From Escherichia coli (GTDB lineage: Bacteria; Pseudomonadota; Gammaproteobacteria; Enterobacterales; Enterobacteriaceae), in NCBI RefSeq assembly GCF_050920415.1, contig NZ_CP169309.1: a stretch of DNA of 64,000 nucleotides. One strand, written 5' to 3'. Made by a program: the position numbers and the translations under genes. The notes under the pieces were generated by a model, which was not told the DNA's origin, did not search any database, and saw only the letters and a program-made list of their open reading frames with translations. Positions 21,917 through 33,419 of this stretch are shown piece after piece (within the stretch, counting starts at the first letter, position 1; the number at the start of each line of letters is the position of its first letter).

Positions 21917-24109
21917 ATGTCACAGGGGATGTGCATGCTGCGATGGAAACGCTGTATTATGCTAACATTTATCTCTGGAGCTGCTTTTGCGGCTCCAGAG
22001 ATAAATGTTGAGCATAAAGAATCGTTACCTGATTTAGGTAGTCAGGCCGCACAACAGGAAGAACAAACCAACAAGGGTAAATCGCTAAAAGAGCGTGGTG
22101 CCGATTACGTCATTAACTCTGCCACGCAAGGGTTTGAAAACCTGACACCCGAGGCGCTGGAGTCCCAGGCCAGAAGCTATCAGCAAAGTCAAATTACCTC
22201 TACGACACAATCTTATATTGAGGATACACTCTCCCCCTACGGTAAGGTCCGAACGAATCTTTCTCTTGGTCAGGGCGGCGATCTGGATGGCAGTTCCATC
22301 GACTATTTTGTTCCCTGGTATGATAATCAAACTACTGTTTATTTCAGCCAATTTTCTGCACAACGAAAAGAAGATCGTACGATCGGGAATATTGGGCTTG
22401 GTGTAAGACATAATTTTGATAGATGGTTATTGGGTGGAAATATATTTTATGATTATGATTTTACCCGTGGGCATCGCCGTTTAGGTTTAGGCGCCGAAGC
22501 GTGGACTGATTATTTAAAATTCTCTGGCAACTATTATCACCCGCTTTCTGACTGGAAAGACTCCGAAGATTTCGATTTTTATGAGGAGCGTCCTGCGCGC
22601 GGTTGGGATATTCGCGCCGAAACCTGGCTACCCGCTTACCCGCAGATTGGCGGCAAAATCGTTTTCGAACAATATTACGGTGATGAAGTCGCGCTTTTTG
22701 GCACCGATAATCTGGAGAAAGATCCCTTCGCCGTCACGCTGGGTGTGAAATACCAGCCCGTACCACTCATTGCCGTAGGAACGGATTTCAAAGCCGGCAC
22801 TGGCGATAATACCGATCTTTCTGTTAACGCAACGCTGAACTACCAGTTTGGTGTCCCGCTCAAAGACCAGCTTGATCCTGACAAAGTGAACGCGGCTCAC
22901 TCGCTCATGGGCAGCCGCCACGACTTTGTTGAACGTAACAACTTTATTGTTCTGGAATACAAAGAGAAAGATCCGCTCGATGTCACTTTGTGGCTGAAAG
23001 CCGATGCGACGAATGAACATCCCGAGTGCGTGATTAAAGATACGCCAGAAGCAGCCATCGGGCTGGAAAAATGTAAGTGGACCATTAACGCGCTCATTAA
23101 TCATCACTACAAAATCGTTGCTGCCTCCTGGCAGGCGAAAAACAATGCTGCACGTACGCTGGTGATGCCGGTTATCAAAGAAAATACGCTTACTGAAGGT
23201 AACAACAATCACTGGAATCTGGTGCTGCCTGCCTGGCAGTACAGCTCTGATAAAGCCGACCAGGAAAAACTCAATACCTGGCGGGTACGGCTGGCGCTGG
23301 AAGATGAAAAAGGCAATCGGCAGAACTCCGGCGTGGTGGAAATCACCGTTCAGCAGGATCGTAAAATTGAGCTCATCGTTAACAACATCGCCAATGTACC
23401 GGATGAGAACAATCACAGCCACGAAGCCAGCGCGCAAGCGGATGGTGTAGATGGTGTCGTCATGGATCTCGACATTACCGATAGCTTTGGCGACAACACT
23501 GACCGTAACGGTAATGTCTTGCCGCAGGATAATCTCAGCCCGCAGCTGTTTGATGCCAACGATAAAAAAGTGACGCTGACGAATAAACCCTGCACCACTG
23601 AAGTGCCGTGCGTTTTTATCGCCAAACAAGATAAAGAAAAGGGGACCGTTACGCTCTCCAGTACGTTGCCCGGTACTTTCCGCTGGAAGGCGAAAGCCGC
23701 CCCTTATGATGACAGTAACTATGTTGACGTAACGTTCCTGGGTTCTGACATCGGCGGGCTGAATGCTTTTATCTACCGCGTTGGTGCAGCTAAGCTCGTC
23801 AATCTTATCGGCAACAAAGAACCGTTGCCTCTCAATAGCCGCTATCGCTTTGTGCTGTGGCGCGACGCTAACAAAGACGGCGTGTTCCAGCTTTCTGAGA
23901 AGCTCACTGACGACGAGATGAAACAGTATGACTATCAGTGGGAATTCACGGGGAATAGCGTAAATGGCAATACCGGTGCGCAAACCAATACCACGAACGT
24001 CGATATAGAGATTCCGGCAACCAACAAGGACGCGGCAGCAAAGTTTAGTGCCCAGGTAACCGATGGCGTGCAGGGATACGGTTTGCAGGTCAATTACAGC
24101 AAGAAATAG
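21917..24109 (+). CDS. sinH: Intimin/invasin-family inverse autotransporter (SinH-like outer-membrane adhesin)
   Basis: 730 aa; signal peptide; beta-barrel region typical of intimin/invasin (YFVPWYDNQTTVYFSQFSAQRKEDRTIGNIGLGVRHNF); preceded by AT-rich leader 21726-21916; start among ATGs at 21917/21929/21935 uncertain. Confidence 0.75.
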   Translation: MSQGMCMLRWKRCIMLTFISGAAFAAPEINVEHKESLPDLGSQAAQQEEQTNKGKSLKERGADYVINSATQGFENLTPEALESQARSYQQSQITSTTQSYIEDTLSPYGKVRTNLSLGQGGDLDGSSIDYFVPWYDNQTTVYFSQFSAQRKEDRTIGNIGLGVRHNFDRWLLGGNIFYDYDFTRGHRRLGLGAEAWTDYLKFSGNYYHPLSDWKDSEDFDFYEERPARGWDIRAETWLPAYPQIGGKIVFEQYYGDEVALFGTDNLEKDPFAVTLGVKYQPVPLIAVGTDFKAGTGDNTDLSVNATLNYQFGVPLKDQLDPDKVNAAHSLMGSRHDFVERNNFIVLEYKEKDPLDVTLWLKADATNEHPECVIKDTPEAAIGLEKCKWTINALINHHYKIVAASWQAKNNAARTLVMPVIKENTLTEGNNNHWNLVLPAWQYSSDKADQEKLNTWRVRLALEDEKGNRQNSGVVEITVQQDRKIELIVNNIANVPDENNHSHEASAQADGVDGVVMDLDITDSFGDNTDRNGNVLPQDNLSPQLFDANDKKVTLTNKPCTTEVPCVFIAKQDKEKGTVTLSSTLPGTFRWKAKAAPYDDSNYVDVTFLGSDIGGLNAFIYRVGAAKLVNLIGNKEPLPLNSRYRFVLWRDANKDGVFQLSEKLTDDEMKQYDYQWEFTGNSVNGNTGAQTNTTNVDIEIPATNKDAAAKFSAQVTDGVQGYGLQVNYSKK

Positions 24110-24164: not shown

Positions 24165-25157
24165 ATGAAACCTGATATGAAACGTGGCCTGACAAAAGTC
24201 GCGCTCGCGTTGATGCTGGCTGGATACTGTGCCGTACCAGCCGCTATGGCGGAAGATGCCGCCTGGGTCGCCAGTGGAACGACCGCTGAATTCGAGGGGA
24301 CTATACCCTGGCTCTATCGCGAAGGGGGGAATGCCACGATTAACTCGGAAGATGCGGATCACATTAAAGTGACGTCTGATGGTAAAGGGACCCGTCCTGA
24401 AGGTAGCGAGACGGATAAACGCCTTTACTCAGGGGATACCATCACGCTGGGTTGGGATATCGGCGATACCGAAGGGGATATTGATGATGGTCCCGCAGGC
24501 ATTGATGCGAAAACGACAGCCACTATCAAATGGTACAGTTACAGCGATAATGCGGGTGGCGGTAAAACGGAGCTGACCGCAGCGGCAGGCAAGACGAGTT
24601 ATAAACTCACTGATGACGAACGTGGGCGTTATATCGGTGTTGAAATCCAGCCCATCACCCAGACCGGTAATCCTTTCCAGGGAACGTCGCTGACTCTGCT
24701 GGATATTTCAACGGCCAGCGGTGGCGGCAGCGATACGGACAATGTCGATCCCGGCCCGGTTGTGAACCAGAATCTGAAAGTTGCCATCTTCGAGAAAGGC
24801 ACCACTACCAACCTTATCGGTGGTAATACGGCCATTGCGCTTAACAAAACGTATGTGGCCAAACTGTACTCGGATGAAAACCAGAACGGTAAATACGACG
24901 CAGGTACGGATATGGACGTTACCGCTAACTATGACTTTGCATGGGTCTTTAACGGTAACAGTAAACAACTCGGTGCGGCGGGCGGTATTGCTAATGCCAG
25001 CTTCGATAACAATGACATTGTTATCCCGCAAACTAACGAAGAAGCAAGAACCAGCCTTAACGGTAGTGACCGTAATGGTAAGAGTGGTCTTGCGATCCCG
25101 GCAAACGGCGACGGCGTTCAGGGCTATACGCTGTCAATTATTTACAAACACCACTAA
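24165..25157 (+). CDS. Secreted protein, SinI-like; paralogous to the SinH C-terminal passenger region
   Basis: ORF 24159-25157; ATG at 24165 with RBS aaggagag; signal peptide; C-terminus ...GDGVQGYTLSIIYKHH parallels SinH ...DGVQGYGLQVNYSKK. Confidence 0.5.
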   Translation: MKPDMKRGLTKVALALMLAGYCAVPAAMAEDAAWVASGTTAEFEGTIPWLYREGGNATINSEDADHIKVTSDGKGTRPEGSETDKRLYSGDTITLGWDIGDTEGDIDDGPAGIDAKTTATIKWYSYSDNAGGGKTELTAAAGKTSYKLTDDERGRYIGVEIQPITQTGNPFQGTSLTLLDISTASGGGSDTDNVDPGPVVNQNLKVAIFEKGTTTNLIGGNTAIALNKTYVAKLYSDENQNGKYDAGTDMDVTANYDFAWVFNGNSKQLGAAGGIANASFDNNDIVIPQTNEEARTSLNGSDRNGKSGLAIPANGDGVQGYTLSIIYKHH

Positions 25158-25197
25158 TGCGCACAACAGCATTCCCATACGGGGATGCTGTTTTCCG

Positions 25198-25249
25198 CCT
25201 GTTTTGCTTAGCGACGCGTTAAGCAAAACAGGTTGATGTTTTGTTTATC
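25198..25249 (+). terminator. Strong hairpin (13-bp perfect arms cctgttttgctta / taagcaaaacagg) followed by T-rich tract, between sinI-like and ratA-like genes
   Basis: Inverted repeat read directly; could be a terminator or attenuator in front of ratA. Confidence 0.4.
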
Positions 25250-26209
25250 ATGCTGGAGTTTTCTACATGTCGGTATGTCTGAAACCTGGGAAAATCATTA
25301 TGCTTCTGGGCATGTTGGCAGCTTTTATGCTGTCTGACTTTGCACGGGCAGGGGCGGAATGGCAGACATATCCTGATTCTACAGGCGAGTTTAACGGAAC
25401 CGTTCCTTTTGCCGACAGCGCCAGCGTACCCGTCTATCAGGGCAGTGTTCAGCTTAATCCTGCTGAATCTCATGATGTCGGGTTTACTGCTAAACCGAAT
25501 GAATTTAGCGTTGACGATGACGCTGCTAACCTGATTGTTGCTAATCCTCAGGACAATGAAGGCGACCAGTTTTCCACACCACCTGCGCTGCGCTGGGAAA
25601 ATCAAACACCCCCTACCGTCAGCCTGATGTGGGCCGATGCCGCCACGCCCGATGTGCCCCTTAACCCACAACCCATTGCTAACCGTAGCTTTTGCGCTCA
25701 GGGGCTGGCCGGACGCTCGCTGGTGGCCTGGCCGCAGATTGATGCGCAGCAAACCCTCCCACTGCTCTACCTGCTTACCTCGACCGGGTATCCCTATGCG
25801 GGGACGGTGGCGCTGGTGGACCAGAAAGTGACCCTGAACATCGCGCCCGCGCAGGGCGATTTAATCTCGGTGAGCGCCAGTGGTTATAACGAAACGATCG
25901 CGGCGGCAAAAACCACCGTTGGCGACACCATCACGCTCACCGTCACCACTAAAGATTGTCAGGGCAACGTCGCGGGTAATATTCCGTTTATTATCAAACG
26001 TAAAGATGCTGAAAATCGCCAGGGGGCGGTGAATAATAGTGCGCCGGTGATACTGGATAGCACCGAGTTAACGACGACGGATACCGAATACCATGGCACT
26101 TCTGATGCCAACGGCACGGCCACCATCACGGTGAGCCAACCGAATGGCCCTGGCGTCAAAACGCCATTGGTGGTCAGCATCTCCGGTTTTGCGCAAACCA
26201 GCGAAACCG

Positions 26210-29200
26210 CGGTGATTTTTACGGTACTCACCAGCCCGGACGTGGCGCAGGCTACGATGTGGGGCCATATGGCGGAGACGGTAGAAGCCCACGGTTACAC
26301 CTTCAGTCGACCAAAGCTGGCGGCAGAAGTCAGCAATGAAAGCGCCACGGTCGTCGATCATAACGAAACCTGGTCCACCTTCACCTGGAGCGGCGCAGAT
26401 AGCCACTGCACCGTGCTGCCCGGCATGCGCCACTTCGGCGCGCTGGCGACCGTTATCCCCACGTCGGTGCAGACAGTCCTTGGCTGGCCGATGCAGGGGG
26501 ATTATTACTGGTCATCGCTGGCGGGCACCACCGGGCACCACCGGGCAGCACCATGCGGCGGATGTTTCAAACCGTGGTGAAATGCAAAAGCCGGATAGCA
26601 CCCCGTTTCTTGTGAGCTGCGTGGATAAACCCGCGCCTGACGTCGAACCGAAAATCGTCCTTACGCCCGAAAACTATGATGATACGGCACAGGCGATGAA
26701 AGCGAAGGTGGGTGAAGACGCCTCGATGCGTCTGACAATCACCGACAATAAAAATAACGATCAACCGCTGGCGTATTACTACTTCTCGCTGCATCTGGAT
26801 GACGGTGTTAACCGCAAAAATCAAACCGATCCTGCCTGGGAAGCCCATCCGGTGCAGATTACTGGTGGTTCGAATTTGCAACAGGTTGATGCTCACACCT
26901 ATGAAGGCATGACCGATGTCAACGGTCAGGCTTCGCTAACCCTGAGCCAGCCCGACGGCGCAGGCGTGAAAACCCATATCACGGCGAAAATGCGCAGCAA
27001 TTTTACGGCCACGGATGCCAAAGACGTGATTTTTACTGTGATCACCAGTCCGGACAGCGACAAGGCGCGGATGTGGGGCCATATGCGCGGCATTGTTGTA
27101 TCTGGCAGTCTGTTCAAACGCCCATTACTTGCGGATGAAACTGAGCATGAACTGGGATCGGTGCGGGAAAATAACGAAGACTGGGCGCTGTTCGATCAAG
27201 ACACCAGTATGCAGGCAGAATGCGGTGTGGGCCATATACCCCGGCAGAGTTCGCTGGAAGGCTTATTTACTGCCCATCCAGGCAACGCCATCGGCACGGA
27301 ATATGGCTGGCCCACCGCACAACAGAGCTACTTAAGCGCGGCGGAGCAAGCCACGCATTCATCGGTGAATTTGGCGAACGGGAGCGTCGACAGCTACTCC
27401 GGCTTTAAGCGAAATTATCTCTCCTGTTCGGGCAATGAGATGGTAGCGAACGTTGAAGTCAGCACCGATCACGATATTACTCTCGGCAGCAAAGCACAGG
27501 CCAAAGTGGGAGACACCATCGTGATGACCGTGCGTACGATTAACGCGCTCAATAATACCCCCGTTCCCTTTACAGCCTTCACCATCACTAAAGGCATGGG
27601 GTATAACCGAGCGGGGCAGGTGAGCGGGTTTGATGACCCGAGCAGCGGCGCAATCACGATGAATGGCACGCAATACGGCACATCGCAGCCCTCTATGGTC
27701 TACACGGGTACGACAGATGCACAAGGTGTAGCAACGGTCGAAATAGAGCAACCCCAAGGGGTGGGGTTAAGAACCGTGCTGAGCATTACGCCGGTCAATT
27801 CCCATCTACCAAATGCCATTAATTACAATGTTATTTTTACCACCCCAACCAGCCCGGATGTTAGTGGGGCGCAGATGTGGGGCCATATGGATGAAACGAT
27901 TACCGTTGATTCATTAACCTTTACCCGGCCTAAGCTGGCAGCAGAAATCACCAGTCCGGATGGCACATTAACGGAAAAAAACGAAGTCTGGGCGCGTGTT
28001 AGCCAGGCAAGTACGGCCATTACCAGTAAAGGCGGTTGCGGAGCCAATATGCTGCCGCGCCGCTCACAGCTCAATGCGCTCTATGACGCTAATAACGGCA
28101 ATGCGGTGCAAACCACACACGGCTGGCCGACGCAGCGTCAGCCCTACTGGAGCAGTTCCCCCGCGGATGTAACGCCGCACTATTACACCATTGCCCTGGA
28201 TAACGGCGCACAGGCTATCGGCGGCGATACGCCGGTTTACGTCAGTTGCCTGACGACGGCGAACAAACCTGCCAGCAGCATTACGTTGGATGTGGTTGAT
28301 AACGCACAGTGGGCTGCCGGAAATAACGCGGCGAAGCTGAAAAAAGGCGAAACGCTACGGGTTAAGGTAACGGTAAAAGATGCGCAGGGTAATCCGCTCA
28401 CGGATATGCCATTTAAACTCAGTCGCGGAGACGGTTATACCCGCACGGGCGAAAAACATATTGCCGGTAGTGGCGATGCGCTGGTGGCACCGGTGGTGAT
28501 TAACAGTGGGCTGGCGGATGAAACGACGTTGAACGACACCGCGGGATTTTATACTGCCATGACCAGTAGCGACGGCAGCAAAATCCTCAATATTACACGC
28601 CCGGATACTCACGGCACCAAAACGGCGCTGACGGCGACGCTTTACTCTGATGCGACGAAAAAAGACAGCCTGGATACGATCTTTACTGTGGTCACCAGCC
28701 CGGATAGTAGCAAAGCGAAAATGTGGGGCCATATGCCGGAAACCTTAACGGCGGCAGATGGTACCGTTTTTAAACGCCCATTGCTGTTAAAGGAACTGTC
28801 AAGTCAGACCGGGCGAACATCAATATTCGAAGACAATGAAAACTGGGCGCTGTTTACCCAAACCCAGGCGAACTCAACCAGTAGCGGCTGCGGCGCTAGC
28901 TATGTTCCCACTCAGGCTGGGTTGTTGTCGTTGTTTGATAATCACGCCGGCAATACCATAAAAACCGTCCAGGGCTGGCCGGTTGTAACGCGTTATTTAT
29001 CCAGCACGCCCGACAACACTGGCATGGAACAGCGTAACTACAAAGCGGTGGATCTCGGTAATGGCACCAGTGCCATGGTGTCAACGTCGACACTGGATCT
29101 ACTGACCTGTCAAACCACGCCGGTCACCACGGTGACCCAGATTCTACTGGAAGCGGCAGATCCTGCGGCTCTGGTTTATGTTGACGATACACTGAGTGTA

Positions 29201-32200
29201 GTTAAAGCCAAAAAAGGCGAAGAGTCGGTAGTGCGCGTCACCACGAAAGATGCGCAAGGTAACCCGGTTGGCAATGCGGCGTTTATTCTGAAACGTGCCA
29301 CCAGCATAAACCGGAGGTATACATCAGCGACAGCGAGTGCAGGTGCGCTGACCGTAGCCGATGCCTGGGGAAATACGCGGAGTAATTTTCAGGCAACAAC
29401 TGAAATGATCTATGGCGTGACGGGGGCTGACGGGTCGACAACCTTTACGCTGAAACAGGATAACAGTACCGGGTTAAGAACCGATCTCACGGCATCACTG
29501 GATGGCGTCAGCGGCGTTCAGGCGACCCTCCCGGTGGTCTTTACCGTGGTAACCAGCCCAGATTCTCCTAAAGCGAATTTTTGGGGGCACATGCCTGAAA
29601 CGGTAACGGCCTCTGATGGCATGACGTATAAGCGACCATTACTGTTTAAAGAACTTACCAATAACTATGCACGCTATAGCACTTTTGAGAATGGTGAAGA
29701 TTGGGCAAGATTCAGTGTGGTTCAGTCAAATAACACCGATATGGATGGATGCGGTGCAGAGTATATGCCGACACTGGATGGCCTGCAGTCTTTGTACAGT
29801 GCCAATAGTGGTAATGCGATGGGTACAGTGCAGGGATGGCCGGTAGCAACCAGTTATCTCACCAATACACCGAGTGATACGCAATTAAGTAACCGTTATT
29901 ACAATGTGGTGCAGCTGAATTCTGGCGCGGTTTCTCAAATCGTGACCACCGTGCTGGTATTACAAACCTGTCGCACAACACCTGCGGCTGTTGCCAGCCA
30001 CGTGTCTCTGGAGCCTGCGGACGCCACGCAATTCGTTAAGGTTGACGATAATCTGAGCGCCATTAAAGTGAAAAAAGGCGATGAGGTTGTTATTCGCGTC
30101 ACGACCAAAGATGCGCAAGGAAACCCGGTGGGTAATACGCCGTTTACACTGAAGCGCAGCAGTTCTTTCAATCGCCAGAATGTATTAGTGACGATGCAGA
30201 CGGTTTCGGTGACACCCGCAGCGGCCAGTACAGTTGATACCAATGCATCGGCCACCGTGTATGGCGTGACCGGGCCAGACGGAACCACCACGATAACACT
30301 CCGACAGGATGCGTCCACCGGACTTAAAACCGACTTTTATGCCCTGTTGAATGATACCGGGGTGTCGTCGAACACCTTGCCAGTGATCTTCACCGTCGTC
30401 ACCAGCCCGGATACACCGCTGGCGGCCAACTGGGGGCATATGGCGGAAACCTTTACCAGCAGCGAAGGCGTCACCTTCAAACGGCCTTTCCTCAAAGCTG
30501 AACTTTCTGGTGGTACGGCGGTTACGACTAATAATGAAGTCTGGTCGCGTCTGACAGCAACGGAGAAAATGGATGCCAGCAAGGCTGGATGTGATGAGAG
30601 TTATCAACCGCTGATGACTGACATGCAGGGGTTGTATGCGGATTACCCTAACAACCAGTTGGGCACGGTGCTCGGCTTGCCGACTTCCGCAGGGTATATG
30701 TGGGCCTACGACATGATGACGGTTTCTGGCAGCAGCTGGAGCAACCAGGCATATTCGCTCGTTAATGGTCAGATAGTTCAGGCATCGTCCAGTTATACGG
30801 CGGTAGTGATGTGCCTGGTGGAACCGCATACCGTTCCGGCGACGATAGCGATCACTTCAACAGCGCAGGATGTGGCAAAAACGGCCAGCAATGGTGGTCG
30901 ACCGAGCGCCGTGGCGAAGAAAGGTGAGACGATTCCGCTGACGGTGACCGTACGTGATAGCGCCGGGAACCCGGTGCCCTACGCCGACTTTACCCTCACG
31001 CGTGAAACGACGCTGGATCGCTCGAAAGCAACCGTTAACTCAAATGCGGACGATCTTACCGTGAAGTCATTGATACCCGTGAACAGCGACGCTGGGCTGA
31101 CGGCAAATGGGTCAAAAGTGCTCAGAACAACGGGCAGTGATGGCACAGCCACCTTTGAAGTGAGTCAGAATGCCACGACCGGTCTGGCGACACCGATAAC
31201 CGTCACGCTGGCGCGCGATACAACCAAAACCGCCACGCTGGATGTTATCTACACGGTGATAACCAGCCCGGACTCACCGAGCGCGAAATTCTGGGGGCAC
31301 ATGCCGGACACCTTTACCAGTTCGGCAGGCGTCACCTTCAGACGACCGCTGCTGAAAGCCGAAGCGACTTCAGGGTCATCGATTAGCACTAACGGCAATG
31401 GTGAAGTGTGGTCGTATATGAGCAACTTTCAAAATTTAACATCGACAGATTGTCCGCTGGAGAATCAACCGCGCAGTAATGAATTGTTGGATTTGTATAA
31501 TGATCATCCCAACGGTGCGATAAAGACTGACCTGGGGCTGCCGATATATGCAGGCAAGTGGTGGGCTTATGATATGGTCATGCCGGATTTATATACGTGG
31601 CAGTATCAAACTGTCAGCCTGAGCGCAGGAGATATCGCGAAGAGCTCGTCAACCAACGCGCTGATGCTTTGCCTGACGAAGCCGCATCCGGCAGGCGTCA
31701 GCGTAATGTTGACGTCATCCGCAATGGATAACGCCAGAACCCTCAGTAATGGCGGGCGACCCAGCGCGTCAGTGAAAAAAGGTAACCCACTGCCAATTGT
31801 GGTGACGGTCAAAGATCGTGATGGTAACCCGCTGGCGGGAGAGGCCGTGACGCTCAGGCGTGGTTCAGCGATGAGTCGTTCAGGAGCAGGAGTGAACACG
31901 ACGGCAAATGCAATTACGTTGACAGAATTGACACCTGTGTCGGCGGAGTTTTCTCTGGCCGCACACGATACGCAATGGCAAGGTTTCACCGGCAGTGATG
32001 GTACGGCCACTTTCAATGTTGAACAGCCTGAGACCATCGGCCTGGCCATTCCATTCACCGCTATACTGGCGCGAGATGTCGCAACTACCAGCGTTCTTGA
32101 TGCGATCTTTACCGTCGTCACCAGCCCGGATTCCGCAATGGCGACCTACTGGGGCCATATGCCAGATACGGTAACGGCGGAAAACGGCGTGGTCTTTGAA

Positions 32201-33000
32201 CGGCCTAAATTGTTGAAAGAGCTGCCGTCGAGCGCTGGAGTCAGTCAGGTGACGGATAACAATGAAGTGTGGCCGTTGTTTAACGCAACGCAAAGGGTAG
32301 ACGGCAACCTCAGCCCATGTGAATCGGCGCGTCGCCCATTGAGCGATGATTTATCATCGCTCTATGCGCGTTATCCGGGGAACACGCTGACGACTCAAAT
32401 CGGCTGGTCTACGAAGTATGCATGGTGGGCACTGGATAACAGGCAGGGGAATGCCCTGGTTGTCAGTCTGAGTAATGGTTTGGAGTCGTCGACGGCGAGT
32501 ACGGCGTATCAGGGATGTCTGGTCAATCCTCGCGCGACCGTCTCCAGCGTCACGCTGACATCGACCGCGATGGATGCCATTACTCAGGCGGCGAAGGTAA
32601 AAAAAGGTGAAGCCATGCCCATTGTCGTTACCGTAAAAGACAGCACCGGGAAGCCGGCACCGAATGTCGCGTTCACCTTAAAACGTGGTGATGCCGTGCC
32701 GCGTAACAGCGGGGCGACGTTGTATGGTAATGTTGCGGCGATGGATGATATGACGGTACAACCTGCCAGCGGGACGGTGGTAACGCTGGCTGACAGTGGG
32801 AATACGATTGATGGTGTGACAGGGGCGGACGGTACGGCAAGTTTTACTGTTCGTCAGGATAATACGCCAGGATATAAAACACCGTTGACGGTGACGCTGA
32901 CGGATAACGCCACAATAACGGCGACGCTGGACACAATTTTCACCGTGCCGACCAGCCCGAATGTCGCCACGGCGTATTTCTGGGGGCATATGGCGGATAC
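26210..33000 (+). repeat. Array of about nine diverged ~850-bp coding tandem modules within ratA
   Basis: Conserved DNA/protein core ttYaccgtggtcaccagcccggat...tggggccatatg recurs near 26210, 27040, 27830, 28680, 29540, 30390, 31250, 32100, 32940. Confidence 0.7.
26523..26552 (+). repeat. Three tandem copies of a 10-bp unit (gggcaccacc, gggcaccacc, gggcagcacc) at the ratA frameshift
   Basis: Read directly; removing one copy restores a continuous frame reading ...[19 protein letters not shown]... Confidence 0.8.
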
Positions 33001-33419
33001 CGCCACAGTAAGTGGCAAGACGTTACATCGCCCGCTATTGAAATCAGAGTTGCCGTCAGGGGCTACAGCGGCAGTGGCGCCAACGGTGAATAATGAAATC
33101 TGGGCGCTGGCACATGTGATCGATGCTCAAAAATGGGATGTTGCAAAGCAGTGCGGTGACTTTAGTAAAGCACCGAGCTATACCGATTTACAGTCATTAC
33201 ATAGCAGCTTTAGCGCGCTGGGATGGCCATCATCGATAAGCTTCCCCTATTTCTCTACCGATCGGGCCGGTTCGTTCTATTGTGGCATGGATGAAGGGGC
33301 GGGGACACAAAACTGCGGTATTCAGGCATCCAGTACTGCGGGGTTTGCAACCTGCTTCCAGTAGTCTTAACGGGTCTGTAAATGGGGGCCAAGATGTAAA
33401 TAAGATTCGCAATGCGTCA

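What the first reader, a model, noticed from the sequence alone, without database searches (positions are those of the whole stretch)
24165..25450. Shared N-terminal and C-terminal module among SinH, SinI-like and RatA-like proteins
The SinI-like C-terminus (...YDFAWVFNGNS...GDGVQGYTLSIIYKHH) parallels the SinH C-terminus (...YDYQWEFTGNS...DGVQGYGLQVNYSKK). The SinI-like mature N-terminus (EDAAWVASGTTAEFEGTIPW) parallels the RatA-like N-terminus ([21 protein letters not shown]). This suggests modular exchange or a common partner-binding domain among the three island proteins.
Basis: seen in the sequence. Interest (0 to 1): 0.45.

Follow-up and report, generated by a model that had tools for sequence, protein, structure and literature searches.

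The report
Shared address tag on SinH partners
In this E. coli adhesin island the small protein SinI is a hybrid: its tail copies the tip of the outer-membrane protein SinH, which was already known, and its first ~20 mature residues carry a conserved tag, apparently undescribed, that also opens the giant adhesins RatA and RatB and may couple these barrel-less proteins to SinH.

Summary
Both similarities are real. The window is the E. coli der–xseA "ila"/CS54-like island: sinH, sinI, then a frameshifted ratA-like gene.

- **C-terminal module.** SinI 202-330 is homologous to the last SinH domain (BLASTP 3e-11; profile-profile 3.4e-23). This was already published (Kingsley 2003; Heinz 2016) and shows up as NCBIfam cross-hits.
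- **N-terminal match.** It is weak for the window pair alone (BLASTP E 0.32; p≈0.001 only when the first 25 mature residues are compared). It is clear at family level. In 21 loci SinI and RatA, plus RatB in Salmonella, carry [WQ]..(S/T)TG.(I/F)(N/Q)GT.P just after the signal peptide (motif-only profile comparison z 16.5 against shuffles).
- **Not gene conversion.** Identical residues mostly use different codons.
- **Flexible in models.** Both AlphaFold models show the tag as an unstructured lead-in to a β-sandwich.
- **Always next to an IAT gene.** Every context examined has an inverse-autotransporter gene directly upstream. Distant triads have a third protein that is a small lectin-like protein instead of RatA.

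SinI therefore combines two modules, each shared with one neighbour; no single module is common to all three. My best reading is a system-specific docking or targeting tag, which is inferred and untested. The locus and C-module are known; I found no description of the tag.

The parts
21935..24109 (+). sinH, an intimin-like inverse autotransporter (RefSeq start; the longest ORF starts at 21917)
   Evidence: NCBIfam NF033423 scores 1467 bits against a cut-off of 999. Pfam IAT_beta covers residues 69-342, E 9e-105. RefSeq annotation. Barrel homologues 4E1T and 4E1S.
23753..24106 (+). SinH C-terminal domain (last ~118 aa), the module shared with SinI
   Evidence: hhalign SinI 202-330 against SinH 616-733, E 3.4e-23. 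BLASTP 3e-11. The NF040711 profile hits SinH 625-727, E 1.6e-22.
24165..25157 (+). sinI, a SinI-family autotransporter-associated protein (330 aa)
   Evidence: NF040711 scores 376 bits against a cut-off of 165. RefSeq annotation. No Pfam family matches. The AF2 model has pLDDT 82 and two β-sandwich domains.
24165..24251 (+). SinI Sec-type signal peptide (MKPDMKRGLTKVALALMLAGYCAVPAAMA), cleavage site inferred at AMA|ED
   Evidence: Read from the sequence. The LAGY(C) core is invariant or nearly so across the family. No signal-peptide predictor was run.
24252..24311 (+). SinI N-terminal tag EDAAWVASGTTAEFEGTIPW
   Evidence: T, G and P of the tag are invariant across 36 SinI homologues, and W34, T46 and W49 are nearly so. 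Cross-family HMM hits. The tag is coil with pLDDT 66-73 in the model.
24312..24704 (+). SinI N-domain, an Ig-like β-sandwich that looks A9-like
   Evidence: AF2 strands at 49-178 with pLDDT 80-94. Weak Pfam IG_AIR9 hit, E 0.026. An AIR9-like A9 protein is among the Foldseek hits.
24768..25154 (+). SinI C-domain, homologous to the SinH tip domain
   Evidence: AF2 pLDDT ~90.
25158..25266 (+). sinI-ratA spacer with two tandem strong hairpins
   Evidence: 17-bp perfect stem at 25197-25233. RNA fold -48 kcal/mol, z -6.9.
25267..33364 (+). ratA-like giant adhesin gene (BIg21/InvE_AD repeats), disrupted by a frameshift
   Evidence: NF011844 hits both ORF pieces, 908 and 4497 bits. RefSeq marks it 'frameshifted'. 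BIg21 starts at residue 219.
25351..25410 (+). RatA-like N-terminal tag [20 protein letters not shown], directly after the inferred signal peptide (25267-25350)
   Evidence: W32, G44 and P47 are invariant in 21 Rat N-termini. Cross-family HMM hits. pLDDT is below 50 for residues 27-41 in the model.
25411..25920 (+). RatA-like N-domain (β-sandwich, no Pfam family), only weakly similar to the SinI N-domain
   Evidence: AF2 pLDDT above 90 for most of residues 50-200. Pfam is empty before residue 219. The rest-of-domain hhalign score is z 5. Foldseek gives no cross-hit.
26512..26531 (+). 10-bp tandem duplication (CGGGCACCAC twice) that frameshifts ratA
   Evidence: Alignment to the intact gene of L002. 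Sequence read.

Best explanation
SinI is a two-module hybrid inside a conserved three-gene system: an inverse autotransporter (SinH), a SinI-like protein, and a third barrel-less protein.

Shown:
- The SinI C-domain is a paralogue of the SinH distal tip domain.
- SinI, RatA, RatB and unrelated third proteins all begin, right after a Sec signal peptide, with the same ~20-residue tag, core (S/T)-T-G-x-(I/F/L)-(N/Q)-G-T-x-P.
- Tag-bearing genes lie directly downstream of an inverse-autotransporter gene in every context examined.

Inferred:
- The tag is a system-specific docking or targeting peptide. It would be exposed at the new N-terminus after signal-peptidase cleavage and flexible on its own.
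- It would couple the proteins that lack a β-barrel to the SinH machine, for passage across the outer membrane, for tethering at the cell surface, or both.
- SinI, which has both the tag and a copy of the SinH tip, would act as an adaptor or second presentation platform.

In this strain only the first 437-residue open reading frame of RatA can still be made, because the gene is frameshifted. That fragment carries the signal peptide, tag, N-domain, first BIg21 domain and most of the first adhesion domain.
For: - Homology of the C-module.
- Tag shared by SinI and RatA in 20 loci plus Salmonella, where RatB has it too.
- Statistics.
- Protein-level selection rather than gene conversion. Identical residues use different codons (0/7 in the window) and nucleotide identity is 33-62%.
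- The tag is coil with low or moderate confidence in front of confident β-sandwiches in both models.
- Restricted distribution. Only 72 clusters among 1.84 billion representatives match. In the full-length proteins the match starts at residues ~23-42 (one at 73).
- Every genomic context looked at has an IAT_beta gene (or, on cut contigs L028 and L029, the end of a SinH-like protein) immediately upstream. This includes four chromosomal contexts other than der-xseA, where the third protein is a 360-442 aa Big_2/lectin-like protein.
- The tag and N-domain are combined with different C-terminal modules.
- Within-genome SinI/RatA tag identity is 0.44 against 0.375 between genomes. The rest of the domain shows no such excess.
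- The RatA tag type follows the SinI allele type although the RatA backbone does not.
- The literature already hypothesises that SinI and Rat-like proteins are SinH substrates by analogy with ZirT/ZirS/ZirU (PMC4943183, PMC6714894). sinH and sinI are reported to be co-transcribed (PMC12525524).
Against: - No interaction, secretion or complex-structure test was possible, so the function of the tag is inferred from conservation, position and gene neighbourhood only.
- The co-variation rests on very few independent evolutionary events. The permutation p-values overstate it.
- SinH barely differs between the two tag lineages (2 fixed differences). So the tag changes are not mirrored in SinH.
- No parallel changes appear in the two C-domains.
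- The domain behind the tag is not detectably the same fold by Foldseek.
- A 12-stranded inverse-autotransporter barrel occupied by its own linker is not an obvious channel for a 2700-residue partner; Heinz 2016 discusses this problem.
- ratA is frequently a pseudogene, as it is here, so the system works without it.
Confidence: 0.5

Rival explanations
1. Evolutionary relic. SinI arose as a chimera, for example by tandem duplication of an ancestral sinH-ratA pair followed by a deletion joining the 5' end of ratA to the 3' end of sinH. That would give the present order sinH-sinI-ratA. The shared ends would then reflect ancestry only, with no common present-day role.
For: - The gene order and the module pattern (Rat-like N end, SinH-like C end) fit such an event exactly.
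- In-frame deletion fusions between sinI and ratA exist in public data, P0106 and P0117, so the locus is prone to such rearrangements.
Against: - Origin and present function do not exclude each other.
- The tag keeps invariant residues in both families while the rest of the N-domains has drifted to ~18% identity.
- It is kept with different codons.
- It is kept in distant triads and on third proteins of other architectures.
- That pattern is sustained purifying selection on the tag itself.
Confidence: 0.13
2. The tag serves something outside the SinH system. Candidates are recognition by a periplasmic chaperone or protease, export by another pathway such as type II secretion (as for the barrel-less invasin-like adhesin InvL of Acinetobacter), or retention on LPS or the cell surface. 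SinH would be an independent adhesin.
For: - InvL shows that an invasin-like protein without a barrel can use the T2SS (PMC9245377).
- IatB, the E. coli SinH, promotes biofilm without the downstream gene (PMC6714894).
- SinH does not co-vary with the tag lineages.
Against: - Tag-bearing proteins were found only directly downstream of an inverse-autotransporter gene, in at least five unrelated chromosomal contexts.
- The family is tiny, 72 clusters in 1.84 billion. That argues for a system-specific partner rather than a general factor.
- ZirS secretion in E. coli K-12 needs only ZirT (PMC2270342).
Confidence: 0.2
3. The N-terminal resemblance is chance or composition, for example generic features of residues that follow signal peptides.
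For: The window pair alone gives BLASTP E 0.32. It is not significant when whole N-domains are compared.
Against: - Reciprocal family HMM hits land at the same position.
- Motif-only profile comparison gives z 16.5, with 0/100 shuffles reaching it.
- No other ORF of the window or of 20 loci scores above noise.
Confidence: 0.02

Closest known systems
ZirT/ZirS/ZirU of Salmonella (an inverse autotransporter with co-encoded secreted partners)
   Same: - An inverse-autotransporter gene is followed by genes for Sec-exported proteins without a barrel.
- A partner shares Ig-type sequence with the passenger of the barrel protein.
- SinH/SinI/Rat have been proposed to work this way (PMC4943183, PMC6714894, PMC2270342).
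   Different: - No secretion data exist for SinI or RatA.
- No N-terminal recognition element has been described for ZirS or ZirU in the papers I could read.
- ZirS and ZirU sequences could not be fetched, so whether they carry the tag is unknown.
- The third partner here is a giant repeat adhesin.
Two-partner secretion (type Vb): the TPS domain of TpsA recognised by the POTRA domains of TpsB
   Same: A conserved element at the extreme N-terminus of the mature exoprotein, just behind a Sec signal peptide, and encoded next to its outer-membrane transporter. This is the closest functional analogy for a targeting tag.
   Different: - The TPS domain is a ~250-residue β-helix with NPNL/NPNGI motifs, whereas the tag here is ~20 residues before an Ig-like sandwich.
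- No NPNL or NPNGI motif appears in any tag or N-domain sequence read.
- The transporter is a 12-stranded inverse-autotransporter barrel with no POTRA domains, not an Omp85 protein.
Donor-strand complementation in chaperone-usher pili (N-terminal extension inserted into the Ig fold of the next subunit)
   Same: A short conserved N-terminal extension that is unstructured on its own, in front of Ig-like domains. One component (SinI) carries both the extension and a copy of the domain found at the tip of the anchored protein.
   Different: - Nothing here shows that the SinH or SinI C-domain is an incomplete Ig fold or accepts a strand.
- There is no chaperone or usher.
- This is a resemblance only and was not tested.
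SinI family autotransporter-associated protein (NCBIfam NF040711) and the ila/CS54 island
   Same: The window proteins are ordinary members: SinI, SinH and a RatA-like protein between der and xseA.
   Different: This is a rare allele class of sinI: only 18 of 5426 complete E. coli genomes match the region at 95% identity or more. ratA is frameshifted.

Membership tests
SinI family autotransporter-associated protein (NF040711) | Full-length match to the curated profile above its cut-off | tested here: met
   376.3 bits against a cut-off of 165; residues 8-329 cover profile positions 1-299.
SinI family autotransporter-associated protein (NF040711) | Encoded directly downstream of a SinH-type inverse autotransporter | tested here: met
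   sinH ends at 24109 and sinI starts at 24165. The same arrangement holds in all related loci.
Intimin-like inverse autotransporter SinH (NF033423; type Ve) | N-terminal IAT β-barrel domain with a C-terminal passenger, and a profile score above the cut-off | tested here: met
   1467 bits against a cut-off of 999. PF11924 covers residues 69-342, E 9e-105. The barrel matches invasin 4E1T and intimin 4E1S.
RatA-like DUF823/824 (BIg21/InvE_AD) repeat adhesin (NF011844) | Full-length intact protein matching the profile | tested here: not met
   The sequence matches (908 and 4497 bits over two ORFs; cut-off 3870). The reading frame is broken by a 10-bp duplication at 26512-26531. It is a pseudogene of a family member.
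ZirTSU-like inverse-autotransporter two-partner system | Barrel protein plus co-encoded Sec-dependent proteins without a barrel that share Ig-type sequence with its passenger | tested here: met
   The SinI C-domain matches the SinH C-domain, E 3.4e-23. RatA shares nothing detectable with SinH.
ZirTSU-like inverse-autotransporter two-partner system | Partner secretion depends on the barrel protein | not testable with these tools
   This needs a secretion assay in ΔsinH. No such data were found in the papers searched.
Type Vb two-partner secretion (TpsA/TpsB) | TPS domain with NPNL/NPNGI motifs in the exoprotein, and an Omp85/POTRA transporter | tested here: not met
   No such motifs appear in SinI or the RatA N-terminus. 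The predicted folds are β-sandwiches. The transporter is IAT_beta.
Chaperone-usher-type donor-strand exchange | The N-terminal extension completes an incomplete Ig fold of a partner subunit | not tested
Bacterial lipoprotein | Lipobox [LVI][ASTVI][GAS]C at the end of the signal peptide | tested here: not met
   The conserved LAGYC has Tyr at position -1, and Cys is replaced by Thr in Budvicia.

The most novel reading that the evidence does not exclude
Plug-and-socket relay. The C-domain found on SinH and SinI would be a socket for the N-terminal tag (the plug) carried by SinI, RatA/RatB and other third proteins. SinH would dock SinI, and SinI would dock the third protein. The result would be either a surface chain SinH-SinI-RatA or a piggy-back hand-over of each next substrate during export. 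This would be a new assembly principle for type Ve secretion. It would explain at once why SinI has both modules, why the gene order is fixed, and why the last protein lacks the C-domain.
Probability: 0.15. Interest if true: 0.85.

Novelty: new variant of a known kind. Interest (0 to 1): 0.5.

Why it matters
SinH is a virulence factor and vaccine candidate in extraintestinal E. coli and a colonisation factor in Salmonella. RatA and RatB are giant adhesins with no known route to the cell surface.

Whether inverse autotransporters can export or present separate partner proteins has been an open question since ZirT/ZirS. Heinz 2016 calls it a 'Gordian knot'.

A short, invariant, position-fixed tag shared by every barrel-less partner gives a precise handle. 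One can delete it, swap it, or fuse it to a reporter, and ask whether SinH-dependent export or surface attachment follows. It also defines a compact signature for finding such partner proteins in genomes.

If the tag proves irrelevant, the finding reduces to a tidy domain-shuffling history of an already known island.

Tried and rejected
- **Recent gene conversion between sinI and ratA.** Rejected: identical residues mostly use different codons.
- **N-glycosylation sequon (NGT).** Rejected: the N is replaced by Q, S, M, E, K, V or T in many members.
- **Lipoprotein signal.** Rejected: LAGYC is not a lipobox.
- **Whole N-domain homology between SinI and RatA.** Only weakly supported. The remainder scores z 5 and E 0.0065, and collinear D.EGD / W / T.TG.P anchors exist. 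But the Foldseek searches of the two models do not find each other in the top 50. I claim only the tag.
- **Co-variation of the tag with SinH or with the two C-domains (the 'socket').** Nothing found: 2 fixed SinH differences, and no parallel C-domain changes. Within-genome excess similarity of the SinI and SinH C-domains is absent in Enterobacteriaceae, although the distant clade shows it.
- **Solved structures.** None for SinI, the SinH passenger or the tag.
- **Word-indexed protein searches with the RatA N-terminus and the combined profile.** These returned only short fragments and no new family.
- **Literature on the tag.** Nothing found. Kingsley 2003 and Prehna 2012 are not held, so I could not check whether they mention it.
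- **ZirS and ZirU sequences.** Could not be obtained.
Full report
**What the region is.** The window is Escherichia coli chromosome. The 4.9 kb around the finding is 100% identical to strain MFDS1022581 and lies between der and xseA. RefSeq annotates sinH, a SinI-family autotransporter-associated protein, and a frameshifted 'adhesion domain-containing protein'. NCBIfam confirms SinH (1467 bits), SinI (376 bits) and a RatA-like protein split over two ORFs. This is the 'ila' cluster of E. coli, related to the Salmonella CS54 island (PMC12928451, PMC12525524). sinI is 24165-25157 with a good Shine-Dalgarno sequence.

**The C-terminal similarity is real and already known.**
- SinI 217-329 aligns with SinH 628-727 at 33% identity, E 3e-11.
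- The Smith-Waterman score is 134 against 32±5.7 for shuffles.
- With family alignments from 20 loci the match is SinI 202-330 to SinH 616-733, E 3.4e-23. Nothing else in SinI matches SinH.
- The NCBIfam SinI profile already cross-hits the SinH C-terminus, and the SinH profile cross-hits SinI.
- Heinz et al. 2016 (PMC4943183) state that Kingsley et al. 2003 documented this. They compare it with ZirT/ZirS/ZirU and hypothesise that SinI and Rat-like proteins are SinH substrates. Goh et al. 2019 (PMC6714894) repeat the idea for E. coli IatB. So this half of the finding is not new.

**The N-terminal similarity is weak in the window pair.** BLASTP gives E 0.32. The first 25 mature residues score 39 against 18.7±4.2 for shuffles, with 4 of 5000 shuffles reaching it. 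The signal disappears when whole N-domains are compared.

**At family level it is clear.** I fetched 19 loci from a scan of one genome per species and a Salmonella locus.
- In every locus both SinI and the protein encoded after it carry the same motif a few residues behind the signal peptide. An example is SinI NLKSGQWQIVSDSTGTIQGTVPW and RatA ALKSGTWQEVNTSTDAINGTVPL in Citrobacter.
- Salmonella RatB has it as well.
- An HMM of SinI tags finds RatA N-termini as the next-best hits among 2461 ORFs (E to 3.6e-5). The reciprocal search reaches 1e-7. Cross-hits fall at residues ~26-56.
- Profile-profile comparison without signal peptides gives E 5e-7 to 2e-5.
- Column shuffling gives z 16.5 for the motif alone and z 12.6 for the whole N-domain. 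The N-domain without the motif gives only z 5, with the best shuffle close behind.
- Collinear anchors D.EGD, W and T.TG.P hint at a common origin for the whole N-domain. However, Foldseek searches with the two AlphaFold models do not retrieve each other. I therefore claim only the tag.
- The consensus over 52 distinct sequences is [WQ]-x3-4-(S/T)-T-G-x-(I/F/L)-(N/Q)-G-T-x-P. The G of GTxP lies at residue 32-60 of the precursor in all but one case.

**What kind of element the tag is.**
- It is maintained at protein level. Residues identical between SinI and RatA are mostly encoded by different codons (0 of 7 in the window), and nucleotide identity is 33-62%. Recent gene conversion is therefore excluded.
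- In the SinI model (pLDDT 82) the tag is coil with pLDDT 66-73, in front of two confident β-sandwiches.
- In the RatA 1-216 model (pLDDT 80.5) residues 27-41, covering the end of the signal peptide and the first half of the tag, are below 50. The domain behind is above 90.
- A conserved segment that does not fold onto its own protein is what one expects of a peptide that binds something else.
- Neither Pfam nor the PDB covers SinI, the tag or RatA 1-218.

**Distribution and gene neighbourhood.** A combined N-domain profile searched against 1.84 billion representative proteins finds only 72 clusters. In the full-length proteins the match starts at residues ~23-42, with one at 73.
- Among the hits are proteins of other architectures. 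P0244 has the tag, an A9-like domain, Big_2 and a lectin-like end. P0232 has the tag, a Rat-like N-domain, an Ig domain and a lectin-like end.
- Their genes sit in triads: inverse autotransporter (~750 aa), SinI-like protein (~295 aa), third protein. These lie in chromosomal contexts unrelated to der-xseA.
- In these distant systems the SinI-like protein again has the tag (…TESTGAINGTVPV) and a C-domain like that of its own barrel protein.
- Every context I could inspect has the barrel gene, or on cut contigs the end of a SinH-like protein, directly upstream.
- So two rules hold across the family. Every barrel-less partner starts with the tag. The first partner ends with a copy of the barrel protein's tip domain.

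**Co-variation is suggestive only.**
- SinI and RatA tags are more alike within a genome (44.0%) than between genomes (37.5%). The rest of the N-domain shows no such excess.
- The window-type lineage has …AEFEGTIPW in SinI and …GEFNGTVPF in RatA, and both lack the LKxG prefix. The common lineage has …TGTIQGTVPW and …TDAINGTVPL.
- Within Escherichia the RatA tag follows the SinI allele type: 55-68% against 41-45% identity to the window. The rest of the RatA N-domain is equally related in both groups, 62-74%.
- These patterns come from a handful of evolutionary events, so the permutation p-values overstate them.
- SinH has only 2 fixed differences between the lineages, and the two C-domains show no parallel changes. 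The data therefore do not identify the tag's partner.

**Mechanism.**
- Shown: the module homologies, the position of the tag, its selective maintenance, and the invariant linkage to an inverse-autotransporter gene.
- Inferred: the tag is a system-specific docking or targeting peptide that couples SinI, RatA/RatB and other third proteins to the SinH machine, for export or surface tethering. SinI, holding both the tag and a SinH tip domain, would act as an adaptor. I give this about 0.5.
- A sharper version is a plug-and-socket relay, in which the C-domain is the socket for the tag and the chain is SinH to SinI to RatA. It explains the module pattern and gene order neatly but is untested (about 0.15).
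- A plausible origin is a tandem duplication of sinH-ratA followed by an internal deletion. In-frame SinI::RatA deletion fusions exist in databases.
- Rivals: the tag is a relic of that origin with no shared function; it serves an unrelated pathway, such as type II secretion as for InvL (PMC9245377); or it is chance, which the controls refute.

**Novelty and verdict.** The locus, the proteins and the C-terminal homology are known. I found no description of the N-terminal tag in the searchable literature. Heinz 2016 describes the Rat N-terminal region as 'highly divergent'. Two key older papers could not be read. The tag gives a direct experimental handle on an open question in type V secretion: do inverse autotransporters handle separate partner proteins, and how are those partners recognised? 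Interest is moderate at 0.5.

Noticed in passing
window 26512-26531: The ratA-like gene is inactivated by a 10-bp tandem duplication (CGGGCACCAC twice) relative to the intact gene in L002. Only a 437-residue open reading frame remains: signal peptide, tag, N-domain, first BIg21 domain and most of the first adhesion domain, ending in out-of-frame residues.
   Followed up: yes
window 25158-25266: The sinI-ratA spacer folds into two tandem strong hairpins with 12-bp and 17-bp stems, each followed by U-rich sequence (-48 kcal/mol, z -6.9). It may be a terminator or attenuator that sets ratA expression below that of sinH-sinI.
   Followed up: partly
window 24165-25157, compared with L008, L010 and L020: SinI has two deeply split allele classes within Escherichia, at 46-49% amino-acid identity. 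The flanking SinH (85-86%) and RatA N-part (65-71%) are no more diverged than in loci that share the SinI type. Only 18 of 5426 complete E. coli genomes match this region at 95% or more. This suggests allele replacement or diversifying selection centred on sinI.
   Followed up: partly
window 24165-24251: The hydrophobic core of the SinI signal peptide (LALxLAGYC) is invariant or nearly invariant from E. coli to Leminorella. That is unusual for a signal peptide. It is not a lipobox.
   Followed up: no
P0106 and P0117 (database proteins from E. coli and Salmonella): These are natural in-frame deletion fusions. One joins SinI 1-102 to the last RatA repeat. The other joins SinI 1-187 to RatA starting exactly at its tag (…DGTAPL…). 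The locus undergoes module-joining deletions.
   Followed up: partly
L023 4742-7940 and L029 2-2991: In a distant clade the barrel protein's C-domain is 48-52% identical to its own SinI-like C-domain, but only 31-36% identical to the Enterobacteriaceae SinH C-domain. Both proteins have gained basic C-terminal tails. This suggests concerted evolution or co-evolution of the two C-domains.
   Followed up: partly
L023 3718-4365 and L024 3733-4386: An HTH_46-family regulator gene precedes the inverse-autotransporter triad in two unrelated contexts. The der-xseA island has no such gene.
   Followed up: no
L005 (contig labelled as a Collinsella sp. MAG): A 3.1-kb contig in an actinobacterial MAG carries an E. 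coli-type sinI and ratA 5' end. This is most likely binning contamination.
   Followed up: no
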